A stretch of DNA of 35,686 bases, taken from contig NGBS01000925.1 in NCBI GenBank assembly GCA_002245135.1, positions 1-35,686 on the forward strand, written 5' to 3'. Numbering within the stretch: position 1 is the stretch's first letter; each line of letters starts with the position of its first letter. The notes under the pieces were generated by a model. It did not search any database. It was not told the DNA's origin and saw only the letters and a list, made by a program, of their open reading frames with translations. Positions 13,447 to 35,686 of this stretch are shown piece after piece. The position numbers and the translations under genes were made by a program. This DNA is from Proteromonas lacertae (lineage: Eukaryota).

Positions 13447-14038
13447 ATTAGAATATATATTAACTTCCGAATTAAAAAAATTATAACTAATAGAAGATGT
13501 AAATAAAACTAAAAGAAAAAATATTAAATATAAGATTATTATAATTTTTATAAATTATAATTAAATAGACTTTTATTAAAATAGAAAATGCTAGAGTTGC
13601 CTTGATAGACTCTAAGGAAGTATTTATTTATTCCAGATAATACACTACCATAGCCAGTGGCGATGTTGTTATGATTATTTTGTTATGCAACGTGGTATAT
13701 CTATTTTGCAACAAATGTCGTTACGTATAAGTATTATGAAATATTGTATAAGTAAGTTGCAAAACGCTGTAATATGAGTAATTGTAATATTTATTGCAAA
13801 TATAGATTTCATAATAAGAATTAATATTTTTATATATTATAACAATACTTCTTTTTGAAGTTAAAATCCATCCCTGGACATACATACACTATACTCATTT
13901 ATATAATTGGAAGATTTATAATGAACTAAATTATATACATATAAATAGAAAGTATAACAAATGTCAGCTTATAATTACTACAGTCAGTTGTTGATAACTT
14001 GACCTATGACAGATAGGATTTCAGAGAGGTTTATAATA

Positions 14039-23547: not shown

Positions 23548-23652
23548 TATCTCGACCTGGTTTAGTTGGTCAAGAAAGAAACTCTGTTAAAATGAGAGTA
23601 ATAATTCCAGATTCATAATATATATTCCAATAGATATTCCGCTTTTATAACA
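23548..23652 (+). pseudogene. Decayed second copy of the Hydin-like fragment
   Basis: Aligns with deletions to the reverse complement of about 5780-5940, for example CTCTGTTAA(A/G)ATGAGAGTA..AATTCCAGATTCA and CCTGGTTTAG(T/C)TGGT. Confidence 0.7.
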
Positions 23653-24913: not shown

Positions 24914-25660
24914 TTGTTAATGATTCTAATAATCATTTATATATTTCATTTATTTTTACTTATTAACATATGTTTCTTTGTTTTATTTGTAAATGATAAT
25001 CAAATGTGCATGTGGTATAATATAAATACAGCCACTAATTTTGATACTAATAAAACACATATAATAAATAAATACATTAAAGTATTAAACATGTTACAAG
25101 TAAAATACTTTCTAGGATTTGGCTCTGAATTGGGTAGTTTTAGAAACAAAGGGATAATAAAAAATGATCATGATGTGGATATTCTTATACCAATATGGAT
25201 GAATTATCACATATTTAAATGTAATTACTATTTGCACTACTATCCTCAGAAATGTAATATATTTACTAATCCTAATTATAAAATATGTAATAAAACAAGA
25301 ATAGAATATTTGTTTATGTTCAAGGAGTATATTGAAAATATAAGTAAATCAAAAAGCGATTATTCATGTAAATATTGGGGAAAATTTGGTTATACTAGTT
25401 GTTGGATGTTTAAATCAGAATATTTATTTTTAGATATTTGGGTGTTAATAGGGAATGAATATGTTTACAATGATATTGATATTTGCAGATGTTTATTTTC
25501 TGATAATATTGTCTATTGTAATAAAAATGCATTGAAATCAATTATTAGATTATATGGAAAAAATTATATGATTCCAAACAAAAAAGGGAGTGGAGATGTA
25601 TTATGCAAAATAATAATCAACCCAAATAGAAATAATTCAATTTTACTTACAACTAGCTAA
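24914..25660 (+). CDS. LicD/fukutin-family phosphotransferase
   Basis: Signature YFLGFGSELGSFRNKGIIKNDHDVDI, LDIW, and a TM anchor. Confidence 0.85.
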   Translation: MLMILIIIYIFHLFLLINICFFVLFVNDNQMCMWYNINTATNFDTNKTHIINKYIKVLNMLQVKYFLGFGSELGSFRNKGIIKNDHDVDILIPIWMNYHIFKCNYYLHYYPQKCNIFTNPNYKICNKTRIEYLFMFKEYIENISKSKSDYSCKYWGKFGYTSCWMFKSEYLFLDIWVLIGNEYVYNDIDICRCLFSDNIVYCNKNALKSIIRLYGKNYMIPNKKGSGDVLCKIIINPNRNNSILLTTS

Positions 25661-25721
25661 ATTATCTAAATAAGTATTACTAAAAGTCATATGGCTCCAG
25701 AAGGACGTCCTTTTAGGTAAC

Positions 25722-25896
25722 TCGATGCAATCGATGAAGCTCCCGTAAAGGTCAACTCTGAATCTAGAAGGGGACGGACTCCTAGAACACTCGTTAGAAC
25801 TCTGTGACAATGTCCCATGGTCCCATTTACGTAAGGTTCCTACGGGATTCCTCCCAACAGGGTCTATTGCCTACGGAGTCTACTTCCCTACGGGGA
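25722..25896 (+). repeat. Left terminal inverted repeat
   Basis: Reverse complement of about 34865-35023. It is near-identical except around 25805-25820 and for one extra 16-bp unit. Confidence 0.95.
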
Positions 25897-26210
25897 CTCT
25901 TGGAAGCTATTTCTATACCTATCTATGAGACGATCTCCTACGGGTACTCCTGGAAGCTATCTAGAAGTGTTGATTACCTCGAGGTGATGATTCTAATCAC
26001 GCTCTTGACTCTCCTTGCTACGCTGGTGACCTTGTAAGGGCTTTTAATAGAATCGTGGAAACCAATCGTGGAACCGGGAGTTTACAATTGTTAACAAGTT
26101 ACCAAATGGTAACTCCGGGAGGTTCTGGCTAGTTGTGGATTTCTCAAGGCCCTTGAAGATAATGATAAGCAATCTCGGAGGCATTACTTCTTTTCCTAGA
26201 GATATTATTA

Positions 26211-26564
26211 ACGTGCAAGAGAAGACTCCGACGAGGAGGAAGCTTCTGGGGAAAGTTAAAGGACTTCGGTAAAAAGGTTGTTACCACAGGTAAGAAGGCT
26301 GTAGACTACCTACAAGACAAAAAGATCATCTCCAAGGTTGCTGATGCCTTAGGACAACAACAAGTAGCTGACGTTGCTCGTAAGATAGGATTTGGAAAAC
26401 ACCGTGGAGGAGCACGTCTAGGATTTAATGGAGGTGCCCGTCTTGGTTTCAATGGAGGAACACGTCTCGGATTCAATGGAGGAAGGTACCGAAGAATAGC
26501 CAGAGGTGGAGCCATCAATCAACAGGCAATGTTGCAATCATACTTAAGCTCTGTAGGAGCATAA
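26211..26564 (+). CDS. Unannotated 117-aa basic core/membrane-lytic protein, adenovirus pVI-like, with GG cleavage-type repeats; apparent ACG start
   Basis: Translation TCKRRLRRGG-SFWGKLKDFGKKVVTTGKKAVDYLQDKKIISKVADALG...HRGG(A/T RLGFNGG)x3 RYRRIARGG. The 24-nt repeats at 26406-26477 differ mainly at synonymous positions in this frame. Confidence 0.75.
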   Translation, partial: TCKRRLRRGGSFWGKLKDFGKKVVTTGKKAVDYLQDKKIISKVADALGQQQVADVARKIGFGKHRGGARLGFNGGARLGFNGGTRLGFNGGRYRRIARGGAINQQAMLQSYLSSVGA

Positions 26565-26574
26565 GCAATTCCCA

Positions 26575-27036
26575 ATGAGTCTTTTCCTTAAGCAAATTAC
26601 CATGACCATCTATAAGCTAAGAGATTACATCTCCAATCCACGACAACCAGCAAATGACTTACAACTAGAAGACTTATCTAAGGAGTGGTATGATGAAGTT
26701 GATGACTTAGCTGATAACCAGAACATCGTAGGGATCAAGACTTATATTCGATACGTGCCAGCTACAGAGGAAGATAAAGCCCACACTCCCCATGGATCTA
26801 TCATCTATAAGACTACTCAGAAGCTTTACCTTATCAATGTCCATGCTCCTGACAAAGTCGAGAAGCTCATTGTCTTTTACGGAAGATGTACTGACTCCAG
26901 GATCTTGATCAAGAGTATGGAAGGAGTCAGTCTGTGGATTTGTAACATCGTGATTCCATCTGAAGATCTTGATCACATCTACCTAGTCACTTCCGACAAT
27001 GACAATCAGATTCCTTGTGTGGTCAGGCATAAGTAA
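26575..27036 (+). CDS. Hypothetical element protein, 153 aa
   Basis: ATG-initiated ORF with element-type composition and the shared upstream motif; no family recognised. Confidence 0.7.
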   Translation: MSLFLKQITMTIYKLRDYISNPRQPANDLQLEDLSKEWYDEVDDLADNQNIVGIKTYIRYVPATEEDKAHTPHGSIIYKTTQKLYLINVHAPDKVEKLIVFYGRCTDSRILIKSMEGVSLWICNIVIPSEDLDHIYLVTSDNDNQIPCVVRHK

Positions 27037-27069
27037 AAAAGCAATCAACGAATTCCAAAGGGTATTACA

Positions 27070-27609
27070 ATGCCTCGTAAGTACACACACTCATTAGTTG
27101 AAAGAGACAACACTGGACTTAGAAGGCCAACAGATATTGATGAGTCGGACATAGCACCTTATCGTAGGTCAACAAAGCAAGAGACTTCAAAGGACAATGA
27201 TCTTGATGATGGTGAACTATTGAGTATCCTCAAGAAGTTATCCGACGATGATAAGCAATCACCAGTAAAGTCAACTCCGAGAAGAGTATCTCTGAAGAAG
27301 TCAAGTATCGGAGAAGAAGGAGGAATAAGTAAAAGACTGATTGCCCTCAAGAACAAGAGCAAGAAGAAGAAGAGCCGTAAGAACAAGTGCAAGTTGATGT
27401 ACCTAGACGATATTGACTCTGCCGATGATGAGATCACCGTAAGAAGTAGCAGTATCATGGATCCTGAGAACTTAGATGATATGATTAACAGCATGGGAAT
27501 GACTCCATACTCATCACCTTCAAAGTCAACAACTAAGAACACAGTCAAAGGAGTTGGAGGTGCTAGTTATAAGACTTCACAGGAGCCGATAGTCCCGATC
27601 TATAATTAG
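27070..27609 (+). CDS. Hypothetical charged low-complexity element protein, 179 aa
   Basis: Lys-rich tract KNKSKKKKSRKNK (NLS or DNA-binding-like), acidic blocks and a VGG|A site. Confidence 0.7.
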   Translation: MPRKYTHSLVERDNTGLRRPTDIDESDIAPYRRSTKQETSKDNDLDDGELLSILKKLSDDDKQSPVKSTPRRVSLKKSSIGEEGGISKRLIALKNKSKKKKSRKNKCKLMYLDDIDSADDEITVRSSSIMDPENLDDMINSMGMTPYSSPSKSTTKNTVKGVGGASYKTSQEPIVPIYN

Positions 27610-27656
27610 CTTAGTTGTTCTTTTCAAATTGATTATCTAAGTAAAGTTCCCCCATA

Positions 27657-30653
27657 ATGAAACGGACATTATCTAGCAAAGATAATCCTTCAACTAATAA
27701 GAGAAGAGCAGTGACTTGTTTACAAAGGAAGCTTCAGCAAGAGTTCAAGAACCAACTAGCAACAATCAACAACGAGGAAGACATCTTGAAGCTCTTTGAC
27801 TCTTATCTCGGAGAAGAAGAAGTAGTAGTCAAGGACAGAGAAGTCATTAGCAAGGAAGATAATTAACCAGAAGAAGATCTATCCAACTCTTACTACTTGA
27901 AGAACAACGCATTACTCAAGGACTACCTCCAGGAAGTGAGATCCCGAGATCCTAACAACCCCTACAACATCCCTTATCAGCAGATAGATGATTACAATAA
28001 GTACGTGAACTACTATCGATCTATTGTAGACCCCAACAACTTACCTTATCAGACTCCGGCAGTAGTTAGAGTTGCTTACAAAGCACCCCATCAAGACAAG
28101 GACAACAATAATGATGATGATGATAAGCAAGAGGATCACTTACAGATGAATAAGCAAGAGTCAGAGTCAAAGGAGGAAGCCAAGGAAGGTGTTGAATCAA
28201 AGGAAGACGATGATGATGGTAAAGCAAGACCACCTGGGGATGGTAACAACACTGGCAGTAGAGTTGTGAACCTAAGTCTTCAACAAGAACCACTAGCATC
28301 TATCATCGGTGATAATCCCGAGCTTCAACTTCAACAGCAAGGAACAGTGAACTTAGCAACACCGGAGAGGAGATTGGAGCAACAACAAGAGGTCGTTGGA
28401 GTAAATCATCCAGGAAAGACTCATCAATTAATAGTCAACGATGAAGTAAGTAAGATCCTTAACACTCTTGAGAATGGTAACCCTGAAGAGAAGTTCCAGC
28501 TGGATGCTGACTATGCAACGATAATGAATGATCTGGATAATATAGTCGGAGACTTAACGGGGATTCAAGAACAAGGAAGACCATATGTAGCTGATCATCT
28601 CAAGGAGGTTCCAATTACGGAGGACTTGCAAGATATAGTTGAAGAGGTTAAGGAAGTACTTCCAAAGGTGATCCAGCTGGATAAAGACGCCGACATCTCA
28701 GGCATAAGGAAGAAGGTGGAAGAGCTTAAACAAGTGAACTACGGAGCTTACAATCAATACGTATACAAGGAAGTAGAAGCACCTGTCTATGTCGGCGTTG
28801 GCGATAGCTTTATATCAGAATTAACCTCGGCATTGTCAGGAGTCACTTACTCCATACTCACTAGAGATACTGGAAGGCTCCTAGTAAGTAAAGTCAATGG
28901 AATAGTAGGTAAAGCAGTCAGAACCATCATGATACAGCTACAAAAGATACCTTACAAGATAGGTAGAGTGCTCCATATAGTCTTCCATCCAGTACTTGTT
29001 GGGATGATGATCAACCTCCTGATTTATCTGATTGTTAAAAGCAATGAAGGAGATGTCCAAGACAAGAACTATGGTTCTCAGATCTACGATCCCTTGGAGT
29101 ACTTACAACTAGCTAATCAGAACAACTTGCTTAAGAACTACTTGGACTTTATCAATCAGAGTCAGGAAGGAGAACTTACAAAAGCCCAGCAATGCTTCAT
29201 AGCTATATTGCCAGCGATCAATAAGCAGGTGTTGAAGGCAAGTAACATCAACGAAGGATGGATCGCTGATGCTATCGAAGGAGTAGTGATGATGACTTAC
29301 AGGACGTGTATGGTGTTATCAAGAGAAGTGTACCCATCTGAGAATCAACTAGTTCTATTCCGATCAGCCCCAGGAAGTGCTCAAGATGATTACAAGAGGA
29401 TTGCAAGAATAATGGTTCAACAACTAAGAGTCGAGATACACCTTCTTCCCGTGGATCAAAGCCTACCTGTGATGGTAATCCCTTACAATGAGATGGAGAT
29501 GAAGCGAGGTCTATTAGCTATGATCGGAGAAGTCACCACCGATAGTATCAACTTAGGAGGAGTTAACTATTCCAGCAGCTACTTAAGGAACGAGATGGTG
29601 AATCAACTATCAGTCCAGGAGCTCAAGGAGAAGTATCAAGAGGTTGTCAACTACGTGATAGAAGCATCAGGCAACAAGAACTTAACCCAGATGAATAACT
29701 CCATGGTAGATAGCATAAGCTTAGAGATCGGAGGGCAGAACAACTTAGACCTCGTAGCTGGTAATGGAGTTCATGGAAATGCAATTCAAGACAATCAGAG
29801 ATCCACGTGGTCAACGATAAGATCAGCAATCAGTCGATACGCAGTTCCCGTACTTAGAGCAGCTGAAGTTCTTGAAGCAGTGTACCTTGCATCTCAAGGT
29901 TCATCATCTCCAGCAAGCAGAACACTACCGATAGACACAGAGCAAAGTAATCATGTACCACAATACGAGTACAGCTACACAGCAGACTCAGCTCCTAGTA
30001 AAGTCAGGATAGGTAAAGGAATCATGTATTCCAAAGAGACTGACAATGATGACAATGATGATGATGATGATGAAGAGTTCATAGAAGAGTGTCCCGAGGA
30101 AGTAAGAAGCCAAATGAAAGATGAACTCAATCTATTGATCTCCCGAGAATATCAGAACTTCAATAGACAGTACTTGGGAGTCTTTAATTATCAGAACCTC
30201 GATGAACTTTACCAGACAGTTCATAATCAACATGATCAGAAGGATAAGTGGTGCTGCTTACTTTACATTCCAAGGACTAACAAGATCTCAACGTTGTTCC
30301 CAGCAAGGATGGTGACTCTTATTATTGATCATTACCGTCATCACTTCTACTACTACGATCCTCTCGGGCATGTGCCTCCTGAGGAAGACTGGTTAATAGA
30401 ACAACTACAACAGCTCAAGAGATTTACTGCAAGTGGAAGAGTCCCGTACTTACTTAAGATCAACAGGATAGCACATCACCTGGACTTGTCACAGGCAACT
30501 TACAAGAAGCTGATTATCACCGGGTTCTTATCAGTCTACTTTCTATACAACATACTCAGTCAAGAGAAGTCCTTTAAGGAATCCTGTGGGTATGCTCGAT
30601 TAAGTAAGAGACAACAGAATGAACTCAACAAGAAGCCTTATCGTAAAGTGTAA
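27657..30653 (+). pseudogene. ~998-codon protein with C-terminal adenain/Ulp1-like protease-fold domain; one in-frame TAA at 27864-27866
   Basis: Track ORFs 27657 and 27897 are in the same frame, separated by a single stop. C-terminal motifs MVTLIID..FYYYDPLG.PP and TGFLSVYFL. Confidence 0.6.
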
Positions 30654-30705
30654 GTAAGCTATTGTGTTATTTCCCAAAGTGATTTATTACCTCCTGAATA
30701 TCACA

Positions 30706-31960
30706 ATGAGCAAGATCCATACTGGTCCATCCTCCATCATCTCCCAGGAACATGACTTCATCGATGAAGTGCAACCCTTAGTAGCTCTCGATCAACTCAT
30801 CCCTTTAGTTGCAAGTCAAGGACAACGAGTAGAGATTCCTAAGGCTGGTCTTAGCGATGAAGTCACCTTTGAGATTGCCGGGGATAGCTTTATAAACTTC
30901 TCTAAGTCCCACTTACAATATCGACTACATGTAGAAGCAGCCTGTCTCAAGGAAATTACTTTAGCTGATACCTTCGGCCTTGGAAGTATCCATGTCTACA
31001 ATCAATCGGGAGTATCCTTGCTAAAGGTTCAAGAGCATTACGAGATCTTCCGAGGTATTATGACTAAGATTATGCGTAAGGCAAGTAAGATGGCTCATCA
31101 CGGGATGTACTACGATGGAGTCTGGATTGATAAGAAAGGTAAGGTTCTTGAAAAAGGAATGCTTTTCACTAATGTGAGCAATGACAATTACGATTACCAA
31201 CAAACGATAAAAGACAATGCCTTCGACTTGCTTATCAAGATCCCTTGCAAGGAGTTGTTTAACACCATCCTCAGTCTTTCTACTGATGTCTACTTCGGGG
31301 AGAAGGTTTACATCTCTATACGATGGCAAGACAAAGGTAAGACGGTGGACATCGTTGATAATGATGGAGATGCTACTCTAAAGGATGAGACTAAGGTAAG
31401 TCTCGAGGATATCTACTTCAAGGCTAACTACAACAAGGACATTGCCTGCAACGAGAACACCAAGAAGTACTGCCTTACAAATCCTGTGGACTTCAACGAT
31501 GTCCATGTTGTTAGAACTCAAGTAAGTAACAGTTCCAGCTACTTCAACTACTCCTTCAATATCAATAGTTCCATCGGACCTTACGTAAAGTTCATCCTTT
31601 ACAGATGCTATGACCTCTAAGTTCAAGTGGTGGATCAATGACTTCAACTACAACCCTGACTTCCAAAACATGGTGACTAACAATAGTTACGAGGATATGA
31701 AGAGCTTCATCAAGTATAGCTACTACGACCAGGCAATTGACCTACCCTTCAATGAGAAGTTCCTTGAGATCCTTAACTTTACCACCTCTGACTTTACCAA
31801 CATCAAGAACCACAGTGGCCGTCCTCTCGATAATGATATCAAGGTCTCCTTTGAGATGTACAACGATGAACTCAATAGTAAGAATGTTACCCATTACTTC
31901 TTCATCGTGACAGGTAGGTTGTTAAAGATCAGTGAGAACAGGATCATCGAGATAGTATAA
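30706..31960 (+). pseudogene. Putative double-jelly-roll major capsid protein (~417 aa), split by a +1 frameshift at about 31590-31620
   Basis: N-terminal VTFEIAGDSFINFSKSHLQYRL and SIHVYNQSGVSL..VQEHY, and C-terminal SGRPL..YFFIVTGRLLKI..IEIV, match the general PLV/virophage MCP pattern. Beta-strand-rich composition. ATG at 30706. Confidence 0.65.
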
Positions 31961-32012
31961 GTAACTGAACCCCCAGATACAGATACAGATCATAGTAGAA
32001 GAAGACAAGTAA

Positions 32013-34814
32013 TTAAAAGACCTTAACATCGTTAAGAGATATTACCTTGCTATCAAGTGTTTGTTGAAGGAACACTTGAGTTGAATAACCTTCACAATCA
32101 CTGCTTCGTATGCATAGGTCGTACTTACCAGTGTCCTTCAAGTAAAAGGAAGTGCTTATTCTCTCGAGATTGGAGCTAGTATAGCTATACAGGGACAAGG
32201 GAAATTCAACATCATTGGATCCACCATCATAGGAAGGATAAGCTTCAAGAAGTGCCTGGTAGTAACGATGGAGCATCTCTGGGTTATTGCTAGATTGAAT
32301 GAGATGGTCATTGTCTAGGCTAAGTTCAATGGACCTTACATCGGAGTATCCACATCTATTGAACTGCTCCATAGAGCACATCTTGATACGAAGGAAACGT
32401 TTAAAGAAAGTCACCTTGATAGGAACATGACCGACAACCACCTTGAGTGAATCACCACTAAAGCTACTGTAAGGGTAGGGTATGTTCAAGATAACATCCC
32501 AGGTTGTGTACTCAACATGAAGGATGGGATTGCCAGAGTTATCATCTTGAGTAAGTATTCTATGGATCTCATTAATCTTCGTAAGCTGGTTGGGGGAGGT
32601 AAAGTCATTGATCTGTGATAAGTGTAAGTCCTTCAAATGATGGACATCGTTAATGTTACTTTCAAGGCCTGGGAACTTCTCTTGAATGGTATTGATCCAA
32701 TTGTAAGTCTTTGTGGTATAGGCAAAGAGATCATTGAACCAGAAGAAGACGGAGAACTTATTCTCGGCATCGCCTTCCACCAGTCTCTTGACTTTACCTT
32801 GAATGCTAAGCTAGTACTGATAGAAGTAAGATCGGAAGAGAATTCATTGGAGTTGTTACCATTACTACTACCGCCTAAAGATGATAGAGTTGCCTTGATA
32901 GACTCTAAGGAAGTATTTACTTTGAACAGCTCCTGGAAAACTAATTGTTGTTGTCCTTGAACTAGTGGCTCACCAAGATGAGATAAGAGTAGTGACTGGT
33001 TCTCAAAGAGTGTAGTGTTGACCTTAGGCTTTGGAGATCTAAAAAAGTAAGTTCTTGAAGATCAGTGTTGTAATTGCTACTACTGCTGGAGCTGCTTCCT
33101 AGAAGATCAGTGATTGAAGAGAGATCTACAATGGATGGAATGGAGCATCCTCCTGAGGAACCTTCAGAGGATCCTTCAGAGGAACCTCCCGAAGATGCAT
33201 TACCATTGCCAGTAGCTATCCACTTACCGATCATCTTTACATCCTCGTAGATGTCCATCAAGTAGGTGAACATGCTTAGCTGTTCCTTGTACTTCTCGGG
33301 ACATGTTCCTATAACTCCATTCAAGGCAACGTGGGCTGTCATCAGATTAATAATGTGGCTGCTATCGATAGCTTCCTGGGACTTCAGCTCAATCTCCTTC
33401 TTAGCATTCTCGGTCGGTACATTGGGGATGAGGTAGTTAGTGATCAGGTCAGCTTTATCATTGAGAGTAGGAGAGAACGCTACAGGTCGCGCAGTGCTAG
33501 AGTCTAGGTGATTGATTCTAATCCATTGGAAGAGTTGCTTCTGGTTGATATTCAGGACCTGGGTAAGATCCTTTACTGAGATGACTTCATCGTAGAGAGT
33601 ATTGGTACTGTTTTTATCGTCAGGGTTGATATTGATCCCTTGCTTCTCAAATTCTTTAACGATGGCCTGGAAGTAGCTATTGAGACTTTGAAGATCTCCA
33701 TTGAGTTGAACTAAAGCAGCGTTGATATTGTTCTGACTGTAAGTGGTAAGTGAATTCACTTGAGATTGAAGACCGATAGTGAGCTGGTAAAGCTTATCGA
33801 TGTATTCAAAGAGATTGTTAGCTACTGGTACTGACGGAGTTGAAGAAGAAGGAGAGTCATCATCGGGAGTGTTGATACTATTTGGGATCAAGGAGGAGCT
33901 TAGTTTTTCAAGGAGATCGTAAATGGAGGAAGGTCTATTGAGATCAGTAACTTCCATGGAGGATGGATTATATCGGTACTTACCAAGGAAGTCCATTGCA
34001 GAGTAGTGATTCTCGGTCATAGCAATCATCGTCTTAGTAAGGGTATCCTCATTATTCTCAAGGACTGCACTTACCTCTCCGATGATACCGATGACTTCAT
34101 TGACTTTGTTGAGGAGTTGTTGGATATTTACTTTCACATCAGGAGTTGGATTATCAGAGCTGTCAGTCTCGGAGTTGTCACTCCCTGAGCTGACAACTCC
34201 GAGACTCTTACAGATTGAGTTGAGATCATCTGTGATCTGTTGAATGCTAGGAGAGTAGTCTTGGTGCTTATCAAGTAGTTGCTTCACGTTCTCACTCATC
34301 GGCTTTATCAGATCATCCATGGCCGACGCGGTAGCTGATGTCTCCTCCAACACCTTGTTGTTATAGGAGGTCTCTTGTTTAGTGGTATTGGTAAAGGACT
34401 CAATAGTCTTCTCCAGCTCCTTGATAGTGTTGTTGATCACGATCGTGTTGGAATTGCTATCACTGTTGGTATTATGAAGTTGTCTTTCAAGGTCTTGGAT
34501 CTTCTCAAGGAGCTCTTCATGCTGCTCATCGTTCAAGGACACAGGAATGCTTTGTAAAGCTAACTTTATCCTGCTAGAGATCTCCTCATAGTTGGTATTG
34601 CAAATGAAGGAAGAGTTGCTTAACATCCTTTGGAACGTATCGTTGATCACTCGATATCGACATTAACAAAGAGTTGCCTTTGAAGGACATCTCGTAGCTC
34701 CACAAGAGTGTGGTTGATGTGATCGAATTGATGATTCATCAGCTCCTTGACAGTTGTGGTCGGTTCAAAGAAGGAGGAGCTGCAGTTCTCATGAAGAGTG
34801 TTGTCTTGATCCAT
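32013..34814 (-). pseudogene. ~934-aa coiled-coil (fibre/spike-like) protein with C-terminal globular domain, broken by three single-base frameshifts
   Basis: ATG 34814 (MDQDNTLHEN...VNVDIE) joins the 562-aa ORF at about 34650. It then continues via the T6 run at 33041-33046 (KVNTTLFENQSLLL...) and joins the 255-aa ORF at about 32810. Confidence 0.6.
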
Positions 34815-34864
34815 CGATAAATGATACTAGGAAAAGTGCTTATAAGATCATCCCGAAGGAAGAA

Positions 34865-35118
34865 GACCCCGTTGAGAAGTAGACCCTGTTGGGAGGAATC
34901 CCGTAGGAACCTTACGTAAATGGGACTATGGTACAAGTGTCAGAGTTCTAACGAGTGTTCTAGGAGTCCGTCCCCTTCTAGATTCAGAGTTGACCTTTAC
35001 GGGAGCTTCATCGATTGCATCGATGAAGGCCCCGTAAAAGTCAACTCTGAATCTAGAAAGGGACGGACCCCTAGAAAACTCGTTAGGACTCTGTGACAAT
35101 GTCCCAGGGTCCCATTTA
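34865..35118 (-). repeat. Right terminal inverted repeat with 200-nt imperfect palindrome (34917-35118)
   Basis: Apex CTTCATCGAT-TGC-ATCGATGAAG centred on 35017; ~100-nt arms with scattered mismatches. Confidence 0.95.
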
Positions 35119-35600
35119 TATACTATATATATGATAATCAGCTTCAGCATATTCAAGTGAAGATTCAACATATTTCATTGATTTTTCAATCTCATCCTAT
35201 TTTAATAACAAATTACATATGTTTATATATTGTAATAATAACATGCGCTAATATTGTAATAACATTGATATTTTTCTGTTTTTGTTGATGCGTTTTCTAT
35301 AGCATATTTTAAATATTCTAATGCTTTTTTAAAGTCATCCTATTCATTAAATAGTAATATACTTAATACAATTTCTATAGTAACAATTACTTTTTTGAGC
35401 ATCTCCACCAGAAATTTCTATAGCTTTTTCGTAATACTCTATTGTCTTTTCATAGTTTTCTATAGTGTAACTACCTAATTTATACTATGTTGGAATAACA
35501 TAATGTAGTATAAAGTTTCATTTGTTAATGATATTTGTGTTACTATGTTGGAACTACCTAATGCACATTTATAATATTCCATTGTTTTATTTTTTTTTTT
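35119..35600 (-). pseudogene. Host TPR-repeat gene remnant running into the element end
   Basis: Translated pieces NYEKTIEYYEKAIEI, DDFKKALEYLKYAIE and DEIEKSMKYVESSLEY, separated by short intron-like segments. Confidence 0.6.
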
Positions 35601-35686
35601 GACCACTTGATCATTGTGTTACATTTGAAATAGCATGTGTTAATATATTATACAAGTTTCAAAAGTGAATAATAACACAGAAATTG

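What the first reader, a model, noticed from the sequence alone, without database searches (positions are those of the whole stretch)
25722..35118. 9.4-kb hairpin-ended endogenous capsid-encoding element in a protist subtelomere
Seen: a sharply GC-richer, intronless block bounded by TIRs, with five rightward genes and one leftward gene converging at about 31990. Inferred from motifs: DJR major capsid, pVI-like core protein, protease-fold protein and fibre-like protein, which is a Preplasmiviricota-type (Polinton/PLV/adenovirus) morphogenesis module. Known Polintons and PLVs are larger and normally carry replication genes, and Polintons use protein-primed ends. A small element with fold-back ends fits no family I recognise.
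Basis: partly seen in the sequence, partly recalled or inferred. Interest (0 to 1): 0.92.

Follow-up and report, generated by a model that had tools for sequence, protein, structure and literature searches.

The report
Minimal capsid-only virus with hairpin ends
A broken 9.4-kb virus-like genome sits near a chromosome end of a single-celled eukaryote; its capsid gene belongs to an unnamed family predicted to have the double jelly-roll fold, one end folds back into a long mismatched hairpin, and no replication or packaging gene was detected, so it is likely an unusually small virus that borrows those enzymes from elsewhere.

Summary
The feature is real. Window 25722-35118 is 42% GC against 22% for the host, 89% coding, with 167-nt terminal inverted repeats, five rightward genes and one leftward gene. 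The capsid gene (two pieces) belongs to a distinct, unnamed clade known only from Logan contigs (longest 10,216 bp among 28 proteins looked up); an intact homologue folds as a double jelly roll (Z 23.6 to PBCV-1, 5-13% identity to known capsids). The right end folds back (about 100-bp stem, 3-nt loop, z -17); the left end carries only the tip and matches the inner arm for 75 nt, then the outer arm, as flip/flop ends would. The protease-like domain lacks its catalytic His and Cys. No polymerase, helicase, integrase or packaging ATPase was detected, but three proteins remain unassigned. There is no target-site duplication, a host gene is cut, and six lesions show decay. Best reading: a captured copy of a minimal satellite-like virus replicated in trans. 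Main rival: a deleted remnant of a larger polinton-like virus; I could not see any relative's genome. Terminal palindromes and replicase-less PLVs each have precedent; I found no paper with this combination.

The parts
25722..35118 (.). Whole inserted element, 9,397 nt, GC 0.42
25722..25887 (+). Left terminal inverted repeat; begins 5 nt outside the palindrome loop GCA (25727-25729)
25694..25721 (.). GC-rich 28-nt filler of unknown origin between host DNA and the left tip; start coordinate read by eye
   Evidence: no match elsewhere in window or element
26211..26564 (+). g1: small basic Gly-rich protein, candidate core protein (pVI/pX-like, inferred); ACG where an ATG is expected; amphipathic helix after RRLRRGG; six GG sites
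   Evidence: no database support
26602..27036 (+). g2: 144-aa protein, unassigned
   Evidence: no hit
27070..27609 (+). g3: 179-aa charged low-complexity protein, unassigned
   Evidence: no hit
27657..30653 (+). g4: about 1,000-aa protein with an in-frame stop at 27864-27866; N-terminal 800 aa unassigned
30084..30653 (+). Ulp1/adenain-like domain at the end of g4; Arg, Met and Thr stand where His, Trp and Cys are expected (inferred pseudo-protease)
   Evidence: Atlas features 0.91-0.94 to Peptidase_C48/C5 clusters; codons; Pfam, PHROGs and PDB sequence searches blank
30706..31960 (+). g5: major capsid protein in two frames (30706-31620, 31589-31960); 10-13 profile positions missing at the break
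   Evidence: fold from homologue P0009
32013..34814 (-). g6: about 930 codons in four pieces; coiled-coil N-terminal part, C-terminal 265-aa domain weakly jelly-roll-like (candidate vertex/penton or fibre protein)
   Evidence: no match to the capsid profile
34858..35023 (-). Right terminal inverted repeat (inner arm and loop TGC at 35016-35018)
35019..35118 (+). Outer arm of the right fold-back; 7 substitutions against the inner arm in the first 75 nt, left-end type sequence from 76 to 100
35119..35582 (-). Host TPR-like gene with 15-23-nt introns whose frame runs into the element and stops at the junction
   Evidence: TPR_1 E 4.5e-4 for 1 of 4 pieces, below the curated cut-off
13585..13629 (+). 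45-nt scrap matching g6 at 32878-32922 (93%), lying in the host gene array

Best explanation
This is a decayed, chromosome-inserted copy of what is likely a minimal (about 9.4 kb) DNA virus: it carries a capsid gene of an unnamed family predicted to be a double jelly roll, probably encodes only virion proteins, and its mismatched terminal hairpins would be replicated and resolved by enzymes supplied in trans, most likely by a co-infecting larger DNA virus. Shown: boundaries, TIRs, right-end fold-back, gene layout, capsid family and its predicted fold, decay, absence of a target-site duplication. Inferred: the roughly 150-nt imperfect palindrome is the native end and flips between two orientations; the right end is a right-left concatemer junction captured by non-homologous break repair, with loss of host DNA; g1 is a core protein cut at GG sites by an outside protease because its own is dead; the capsid assembles around the genome without a packaging ATPase. 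The helper is not identified.
For: Capsid: 12 of 91 HMMER hits have E<=1e-30 and 17 have E<=1e-10; full-length family members score 204-408 bits, the best full-length outsider 55 bits; the family with the window's N-terminal piece is one side of a branch with SH-like support 100 in a 74-row FastTree; homologue P0009 (34% and 39% identical to the two pieces) models at pLDDT 80.6 and matches Sputnik, SGIV, PBCV-1 and other double jelly-roll capsids. Small size: 89% coding with gaps of 34-53 nt between genes and no enzyme remnant; longest contig 10,216 bp among 28 family proteins looked up, while 3 of 11 distant proteins with contig lengths lie on 11.6-18.2-kb contigs. Ends: left tip equals the inner arm at 75 of 75 positions with the loop inverted, then follows the outer arm (runs test p 0.028); 7 differences in 75 nt exceed what decay allows given 0 of 121 between the TIRs (P<=0.0025); mismatches recur every 9.6 nt (scan-corrected p 0.0085, post hoc). 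Precedent for the mechanism: poxvirus-infected cells replicate any plasmid, resolve heterologous junctions into linear minichromosomes and make randomly oriented concatemers (PMC8956199 Introduction); several PLVs depend on giant viruses; most adomaviruses lack a packaging ATPase (PMC11071296). Protease: His and Cys positions differ by 2-3 bases per codon, so loss is old, not recent decay (motif positions recalled).
Against: No relative's DNA could be fetched, so the gene content of the family is unseen; Logan contigs are short and near-identical proteins are not independent, so the 10.2-kb ceiling is weak. g2, g3 and 800 residues of g4 are unassigned and could hide a divergent nuclease, replication protein or ATPase; g4 holds one Walker-A-like pattern at 28398 that no profile supports. 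A 324-nt non-coding gap after the left TIR could mark a deletion, and this copy has already lost residues in g5. The flip/flop pattern is equally produced if the outer arm is the left end of a second, 8% diverged variant. No large-virus promoter or terminator motif was found (0 of 6 upstream regions for AAAATTGA, TATATA, TAAATG; no T7), and the shared upstream motif resembles the splice acceptors before adomavirus late genes, which would point to the host nucleus rather than a helper's factory. The fold was predicted for a homologue, not for the window's own broken protein.
Confidence: 0.5

Rival explanations
1. A deleted, non-autonomous remnant of a larger polinton-like virus that kept its TIRs and structural genes and lost its replication, packaging and integration genes in one block.
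For: Fragmented PLVs and virophages that keep TIRs are described in Halocafeteria; this copy is decayed and has a deletion in g5; 324-nt gap after the left TIR; distant capsid relatives lie on contigs up to 18.2 kb.
Against: No enzyme remnant in any of the element's frames; each of 6 genes keeps the shared upstream motif; 0 of 28 family proteins on a contig over 10,216 bp; old loss of protease residues suggests long-standing reduction.
Confidence: 0.28
2. The same minimal virus, but replicating alone in the host nucleus: hairpins prime host polymerases and host junction-resolving nucleases regenerate the ends, with genes expressed by host splicing or short promoters, parvovirus- or adomavirus-like but without a Rep protein.
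For: Motif WTTYCM lies 19-37 nt before 6 of 6 starts (7% of random windows; post hoc p 1.6e-7), in 5 of 6 followed within 3 nt by AG; no large-virus promoter motifs; adomavirus late genes have splice acceptors just before ATG; CpG is depleted, o/e 0.52; the copy reached the nucleus.
Against: Three of those five AG ends are AAG, an uncommon acceptor (read; frequency recalled); no nickase or origin-binding protein detected; I know no capsid-bearing DNA virus replicated by host enzymes alone without an initiator (recalled).
Confidence: 0.15
3. The fold-back is a by-product: the outer arm is the left end of a second diverged variant, or a template switch, joined to the right end through the 13-nt palindrome at the tip; the native end is then only a short palindrome. 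This can hold together with any reading of the gene content.
For: Outer arm differs from the left end at 7 of 75 and 1 of 25 positions, compatible with uniform divergence; a scrap of another copy lies at 13585; family members exist as 97-100% variants; an earlier AI note on another genome read a similar hairpin as fold-back copying (e1-9371185, unchecked).
Against: A recent template switch would give perfect arms; the join sits exactly at a loop that the left end also carries; mismatch spacing is regular; differences show no drift to A/T as decay in a 22% GC host would (4 to G/C, 3 to A/T, 1 neutral; read, small numbers).
Confidence: 0.25
4. Assembly artefact: a free viral contig or a fold-back read was joined to host sequence.
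For: No reads or second assembly were available to test the junctions.
Against: Host DNA on both sides, a cut host gene, a separate scrap at 13585, a deletion-type break in g5, and an outer arm with substitutions but no indels against the left end over 100 nt.
Confidence: 0.05

Closest known systems
Polinton-like viruses (Polisuviricotina; Bellas and Sommaruga 2026, 10.64898/2026.06.19.733378), including replicase-less VC40
   Same: Double jelly-roll capsid, TIRs, integrated in a protist genome with a GC shift; VC40 has no detectable replication genes.
   Different: [quoted passage not shown] Here 9.4 kb, no ATPase detected. That study's genome analyses used contigs over 10 kb, which would exclude this element.
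Halocafeteria seosinensis virophages and PLV subtype 4 with terminal palindromes (10.64898/2026.07.28.741278)
   Same: Palindromes at TIR tips proposed to prime replication.
   Different: Theirs (52 nt in virophage subtype 5) sit beside target-site duplications in elements with replication and integrase genes; here a stem of about 100 bp with mismatches, no duplication, no such genes.
Polintons/Mavericks (Polintoviricetes) and the Blastocystis MELD virus (PMC8502044)
   Same: Capsid, Ulp1-like protease domain, candidate core protein, TIRs.
   Different: They encode pPolB, RVE integrase and ATPase; none detected here and the protease lacks catalytic residues. The nearest MELD model in BFVD aligns at 11% identity.
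Adomaviruses
   Same: Small genomes (size recalled), double jelly-roll hexon, core protein with L(LR)GG sites, coiled-coil protein, mostly no packaging ATPase, acceptor-like sites before late genes.
   Different: Circular genomes with their own helicase, active adenain, animal hosts; capsid identity 9%.
Poxvirus and asfarvirus flip/flop hairpin telomeres
   Same: Imperfect palindrome in two inverted-complement forms; concatemer junctions.
   Different: Large genomes with their own polymerase and resolvase; AT-rich hairpins. Here a works-like comparison only.
Transpovirons
   Same: About 7 kb, linear with TIRs, dependent on a giant virus.
   Different: They keep a helicase and lack capsid genes; this element is the mirror image.

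Membership tests
Preplasmiviricota-type double jelly-roll viruses (broad) | [quoted passage not shown] | tested here: met
   Model of homologue P0009: Foldseek E 2.3e-13 to Sputnik; VIA Z 23.6, rmsd 3.8, 349 aligned to PBCV-1; top 16 rows are capsid or scaffold proteins of this fold; both window pieces match the family profile at E 1e-65 and 4e-39
Polinton-like viruses | [quoted passage not shown] | tested here: inconclusive
   g6 C-terminal domain: Atlas score 0.92-0.93 to clusters with 13-16% capsid Pfam share, recognition 1424 below the 2300 guide; no hit
Polinton-like viruses | A32-like packaging ATPase | tested here: not met
   No Pfam, PHROGs, NCBIfam or PDB hit in the element's frames; one unsupported Walker-A-like pattern at 28398. 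Sequence-level test only; the g4 body was not folded
Polinton-like viruses | Genome of 15-45 kb | tested here: not met
   9,397 nt between the tips; range
Polinton-like viruses | Capsid assigned to one of the published PLV capsid profiles | not testable with these tools
Polintons (Polintoviricetes) | Protein-primed polymerase B | tested here: not met
   No Pfam hit, no polB motif in six frames
Polintons (Polintoviricetes) | RVE integrase and target-site duplication | tested here: not met
   No integrase hit; longest shared word between flanks is 5 nt and none sits at both junctions
Polintons (Polintoviricetes) | Active Ulp1-like maturation protease | tested here: not met
   Fold likely but Arg and Thr at the His and Cys positions (positions assigned from recalled motifs, model unusable)
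Virophages | Orthologous MCP, mCP, ATPase and protease | tested here: not met
   No virophage capsid Pfam or PDB sequence hit for family members or their profile; 8-11% identity to Sputnik and mavirus capsids; no ATPase
Adomaviridae | Circular genome with own helicase/replicase | tested here: not met
   TIR-bounded, no helicase hit
Flip/flop hairpin-ended genomes (works-like) | Two inverted-complement end isomers on free genomes | tested here: inconclusive
   Pattern in the single integrated copy fits; no free genomes or reads seen
Satellite of a helper virus (works-like) | Replication only with a helper | not testable with these tools
   No genome or runs held

The most novel reading that the evidence does not exclude
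An undescribed family of 9-10-kb eukaryotic double jelly-roll viruses, with at least eight capsid lineages at 25-45% identity, that encode only virion proteins: no polymerase, helicase, integrase or packaging ATPase, a dead protease kept as a structural domain, and poxvirus-like mismatched flip/flop hairpin ends replicated entirely in trans. They would be among the smallest protist viruses of this lineage and the mirror image of transpovirons.
Probability: 0.4. Interest if true: 0.88.

Novelty: new variant of a known kind. Interest (0 to 1): 0.72.

Why it matters
If relatives share this layout, it shows that a double jelly-roll virus can shed replication, packaging and integration genes and persist on capsid genes plus hairpin ends. 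That extends the lower size limit of polinton-like viruses below the 10-kb filter used in a recent survey, gives a natural test of whether terminal palindromes in these viruses act as origins (left open), and supplies a new capsid profile for finding the family and its hosts in public reads. Even under the remnant reading, the capsid clade is unnamed in the databases searched.

Tried and rejected
No whole genome was held, so other copies could not be sought. No sequencing run was listed for the element; that is no evidence either way. No related locus in IMG/VR, JGI metagenomes, GTDB genomes or phage records. Word-based homologue searches found nothing for the g4 protease-like region (0 of 161 candidates) or for longer proteins holding the g6 C-terminal domain (0 of 918); the whole-g4 search timed out. 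Single-sequence fold of the protease-like domain failed (pLDDT 36) and was not used. g6 C-terminal domain as a paralogue of the capsid: no support from profile comparison. Pfam, PHROGs, NCBIfam and PDB sequence searches gave only coiled-coil or chance hits for element proteins. No Rfam family in 25000-35686. No second capsid remnant among 387 open pieces of the window. The IQ-TREE run did not finish; FastTree was used, without named reference capsids, leaving out distant hits under 410 or over 520 residues and the C-terminal window piece. Search of the PMC8502044 supplement for three family motifs gave 0 hits, but so did the word 'blastocystis', so the held file probably lacks the sequences. 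No complex was predicted: no binding claim depends on it. Earlier scan notes by sequence, genome and relatives were empty.
Full report
Observation. The block is real. GC is 0.421 over 25722-35118 against 0.223 to the left and 0.234 to the right, and third-codon GC is 0.35-0.64 in 8 element frames against 0.12-0.20 in 6 host frames. The window starts with a CCCTAA array, followed by a dense run of intronless glycosyl-, acyl- and methyltransferase genes, so the element lies about 25 kb from a chromosome end of an AT-rich eukaryote. To its right is a TPR-like host gene with candidate 15-23-nt introns whose frame runs into the element and stops at the junction (TPR_1 E 4.5e-4 for 1 of 4 pieces). 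The rest of that gene is not at the left junction and no target-site duplication exists, so insertion probably came with loss or rearrangement of host DNA. 'Protist' is an inference from these traits.

Ends. The TIRs align over 167 columns at 92.8%. The right end continues through a 3-nt loop into an outer arm of 100 nt and folds at z -17.1, with 0 of 200 shuffles as stable. The left end keeps the same loop in the opposite orientation plus 5 nt, not a full hairpin. Counting from the loop, the left end equals the inner arm at 75 of 75 positions and differs from the outer arm at 7; from 76 to 100 it differs from the inner arm at 6 positions (one a gap) and from the outer arm at 1 (runs test p 0.028). 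The TIRs show 0 differences in 121 positions outside two variable blocks, which bounds decay at 2.45% and makes 7 of 75 unlikely as decay (P 0.0025). The mismatches fall at 11-12, 21, 41, 51, 59 and 69, a period of 9.6 nt (scan-corrected p 0.0085, noticed after the fact). The simplest single reading is a native imperfect palindrome of about 150 nt that occurs in two orientations, with the right end being a right-left concatemer junction. The alternative is that the outer arm is the left end of a second variant about 8% diverged; one copy cannot separate these.

Genes. Six genes cover 89% of the element, with gaps of 34-53 nt between them, 44 nt at the right TIR and 324 nt at the left TIR; codon scores follow these frames. 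A motif WTTYCM lies 19-37 nt before 6 of 6 starts and in 7% of random 50-nt windows (post hoc p 1.6e-7); it could be an initiator or a splice acceptor. The copy is broken at six places: ACG at the expected start of g1, a stop in g4, a frame change with 10-13 missing profile positions in g5, and three frame changes in g6.

Capsid. A word-based search found 1 homologue among 788 candidates. HMMER over 1.84 billion representatives gave 91 hits at E<=0.001, 17 at <=1e-10 and 12 at <=1e-30; full-length family members score 204-408 bits and the best full-length outsider 55. Eight family representatives share 25-45% identity. In a FastTree of 74 rows (10 family proteins, the window's N-terminal piece, 63 distant hits) the 11 family rows form one side of a branch with SH-like support 100; no named references were in the tree. 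I looked up 9 of the 17 strong hits and the cluster of P0001: 28 of 28 listed proteins come from Logan only, 0 carry a name, and the longest contig is 10,216 bp. Of the 74 weaker hits I looked up 11; one comes from a Lithocolla globosa transcriptome and 3 of 11 listed proteins with contig lengths lie on 11.6-18.2-kb contigs. The intact homologue P0009, 34% and 39% identical to the two window pieces, models at pLDDT 80.6. Foldseek ranks Sputnik, SGIV and PBCV-1 capsids first (E 2e-13 to 3e-12, 7-11% identity), BFVD gives large-virus, virophage, adintovirus, MELD and adomavirus capsids at 6-13%, and VIA-align gives Z 23.6 to PBCV-1 and 22.6 to faustovirus. So the family is double jelly roll and close to none of these. 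None of 31 proteins tested reached a Pfam capsid family.

Other proteins. g1 is 21% Lys+Arg and 19% Gly, with an amphipathic helix (96th percentile of other element windows) after RRLRRGG and six GG sites; adomavirus core proteins carry L(LR)GG cleavage motifs (passages of 10.1101/341131). The pVI-like label is otherwise recalled and no search supports it. The last 190 residues of g4 match Ulp1/adenain-family clusters by Atlas features (0.91-0.94; Pfam share 14-95%), but Arg (AGG), Met and Thr (ACC) stand where His, Trp and Cys are expected from recalled motifs, changes of 2-3 bases each; I infer an old pseudo-protease. g6 has a coiled-coil N-terminal part and a C-terminal domain whose Atlas neighbours include clusters with 13-16% capsid Pfam share, at low recognition, a weak lead to a vertex protein. 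g2, g3 and the g4 body are unassigned. No polymerase, helicase, integrase or ATPase was detected; one Walker-A-like pattern in g4 at 28398 is unsupported.

Mechanism. I commit, at 0.5, to a minimal virus that supplies its own particle and borrows the rest. Hairpin ends would be copied into concatemers and resolved by a helper's enzymes: poxvirus-infected cells replicate any plasmid, resolve heterologous junctions and link genomes in random orientation (Introduction of PMC8956199; abstract), and several cultured PLVs need a giant virus (10.64898/2026.06.19.733378). GG sites in g1 would be cut by an outside Ulp1-like protease. Packaging without an ATPase has precedent in most adomaviruses (passage of PMC11071296). 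A piece of concatemer, slightly more than one unit long, was then captured at a chromosome break and decayed. Against a cytoplasmic helper: none of the tested large-virus promoter motifs precedes a gene, and the shared motif resembles acceptors used by a nuclear virus. Against minimality: relatives' genomes are unseen and a deletion next to the left TIR cannot be excluded.

Comparison with print. Polintons and virophages are described with MCP, mCP, ATPase and protease (passages of PMC11161782); PLVs with MCP, mCP and ATPase at 15-45 kb (parts 1-4 of 5 of the 2026 framework preprint). VC40 lacks detectable replication genes but keeps the ATPase at 15-20 kb. Terminal palindromes are reported in Halocafeteria virophages and one PLV subtype, beside target-site duplications and with replication genes (passages and section 7). 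The Blastocystis MELD virus has PolB and integrase (passages and section 3.4 of PMC8502044). Transpovirons keep a helicase and no capsid (passages of PMC11788076). Integration without a detectable integrase is known for an entomopoxvirus-associated PLV (passages of PMC11296320). I also saw passages of PMC10120064 and of the egovirus preprint; neither described such an element in what I read. Ten full-text searches returned no description of a sub-10-kb, ATPase-less, hairpin-ended double jelly-roll element; subscription journals are largely missing, and the closed bioRxiv supplements (the 51 capsid profiles above all) could already contain this clade.

Verdict. Real, viral and unusual. The capsid clade is unnamed in the sources searched; each oddity has a separate precedent, the combination has none that I found. 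It is not filed as a Polinton, virophage or PLV in the strict sense because ATPase, size, polymerase and integrase tests were not met, though it works like a helper-dependent member of that supergroup. Novelty: new variant of a known kind; interest 0.72; a new minimal family has probability 0.4.

Noticed in passing
window 13585-13629: A 45-nt scrap 93% identical to g6 (32878-32922), E about 1e-12, sits just past a host gene end; probably a trace of another copy. No further match nearby.
   Followed up: partly
window 25694-25721: GC-rich 28-nt filler with a 12-nt perfect palindrome just outside the left tip; matches nothing else in the window.
   Followed up: partly
window 1149-25660: Subtelomeric array of about 20 intronless frames; those tested hit acyltransferase-3/SGNH, GT31, GT10, GT15, methyltransferase and weakly LicD families. 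The element sits between this array and an intron-bearing gene.
   Followed up: partly
window 35119-35582 (-): Host gene with very short candidate introns (15, 16, 20, 23 nt), a possible clue to the host's splicing system.
   Followed up: partly
window 5974-7124: Direct repeats of 102 nt (5974-6075, 6722-6823) and inverted repeats of 117 nt (6127-6243, 7008-7124) sharing an 11-nt motif; possibly a small non-coding transposon.
   Followed up: no
window 4789-5862 (-) and 23567-23615: A 357-codon Pro/Glu-rich frame with no Pfam hit in a slightly GC-richer patch; its 5' part (5838-5886) has an 88% inverted match at 23567-23615.
   Followed up: partly
window 25830-25835 and 34910-34915 (-): A splice-donor-like GTAAG lies in both TIRs about 101 nt from the loop, where the outer arm also ends; could serve a shared leader if the upstream motifs are acceptors (read).
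   Followed up: no
proteins P0025-P0098: A large sister set of 430-500-residue capsid-like proteins with no Pfam capsid hit in the 23 tested, one from a Lithocolla globosa transcriptome; their PLV group was not determined.
   Followed up: partly
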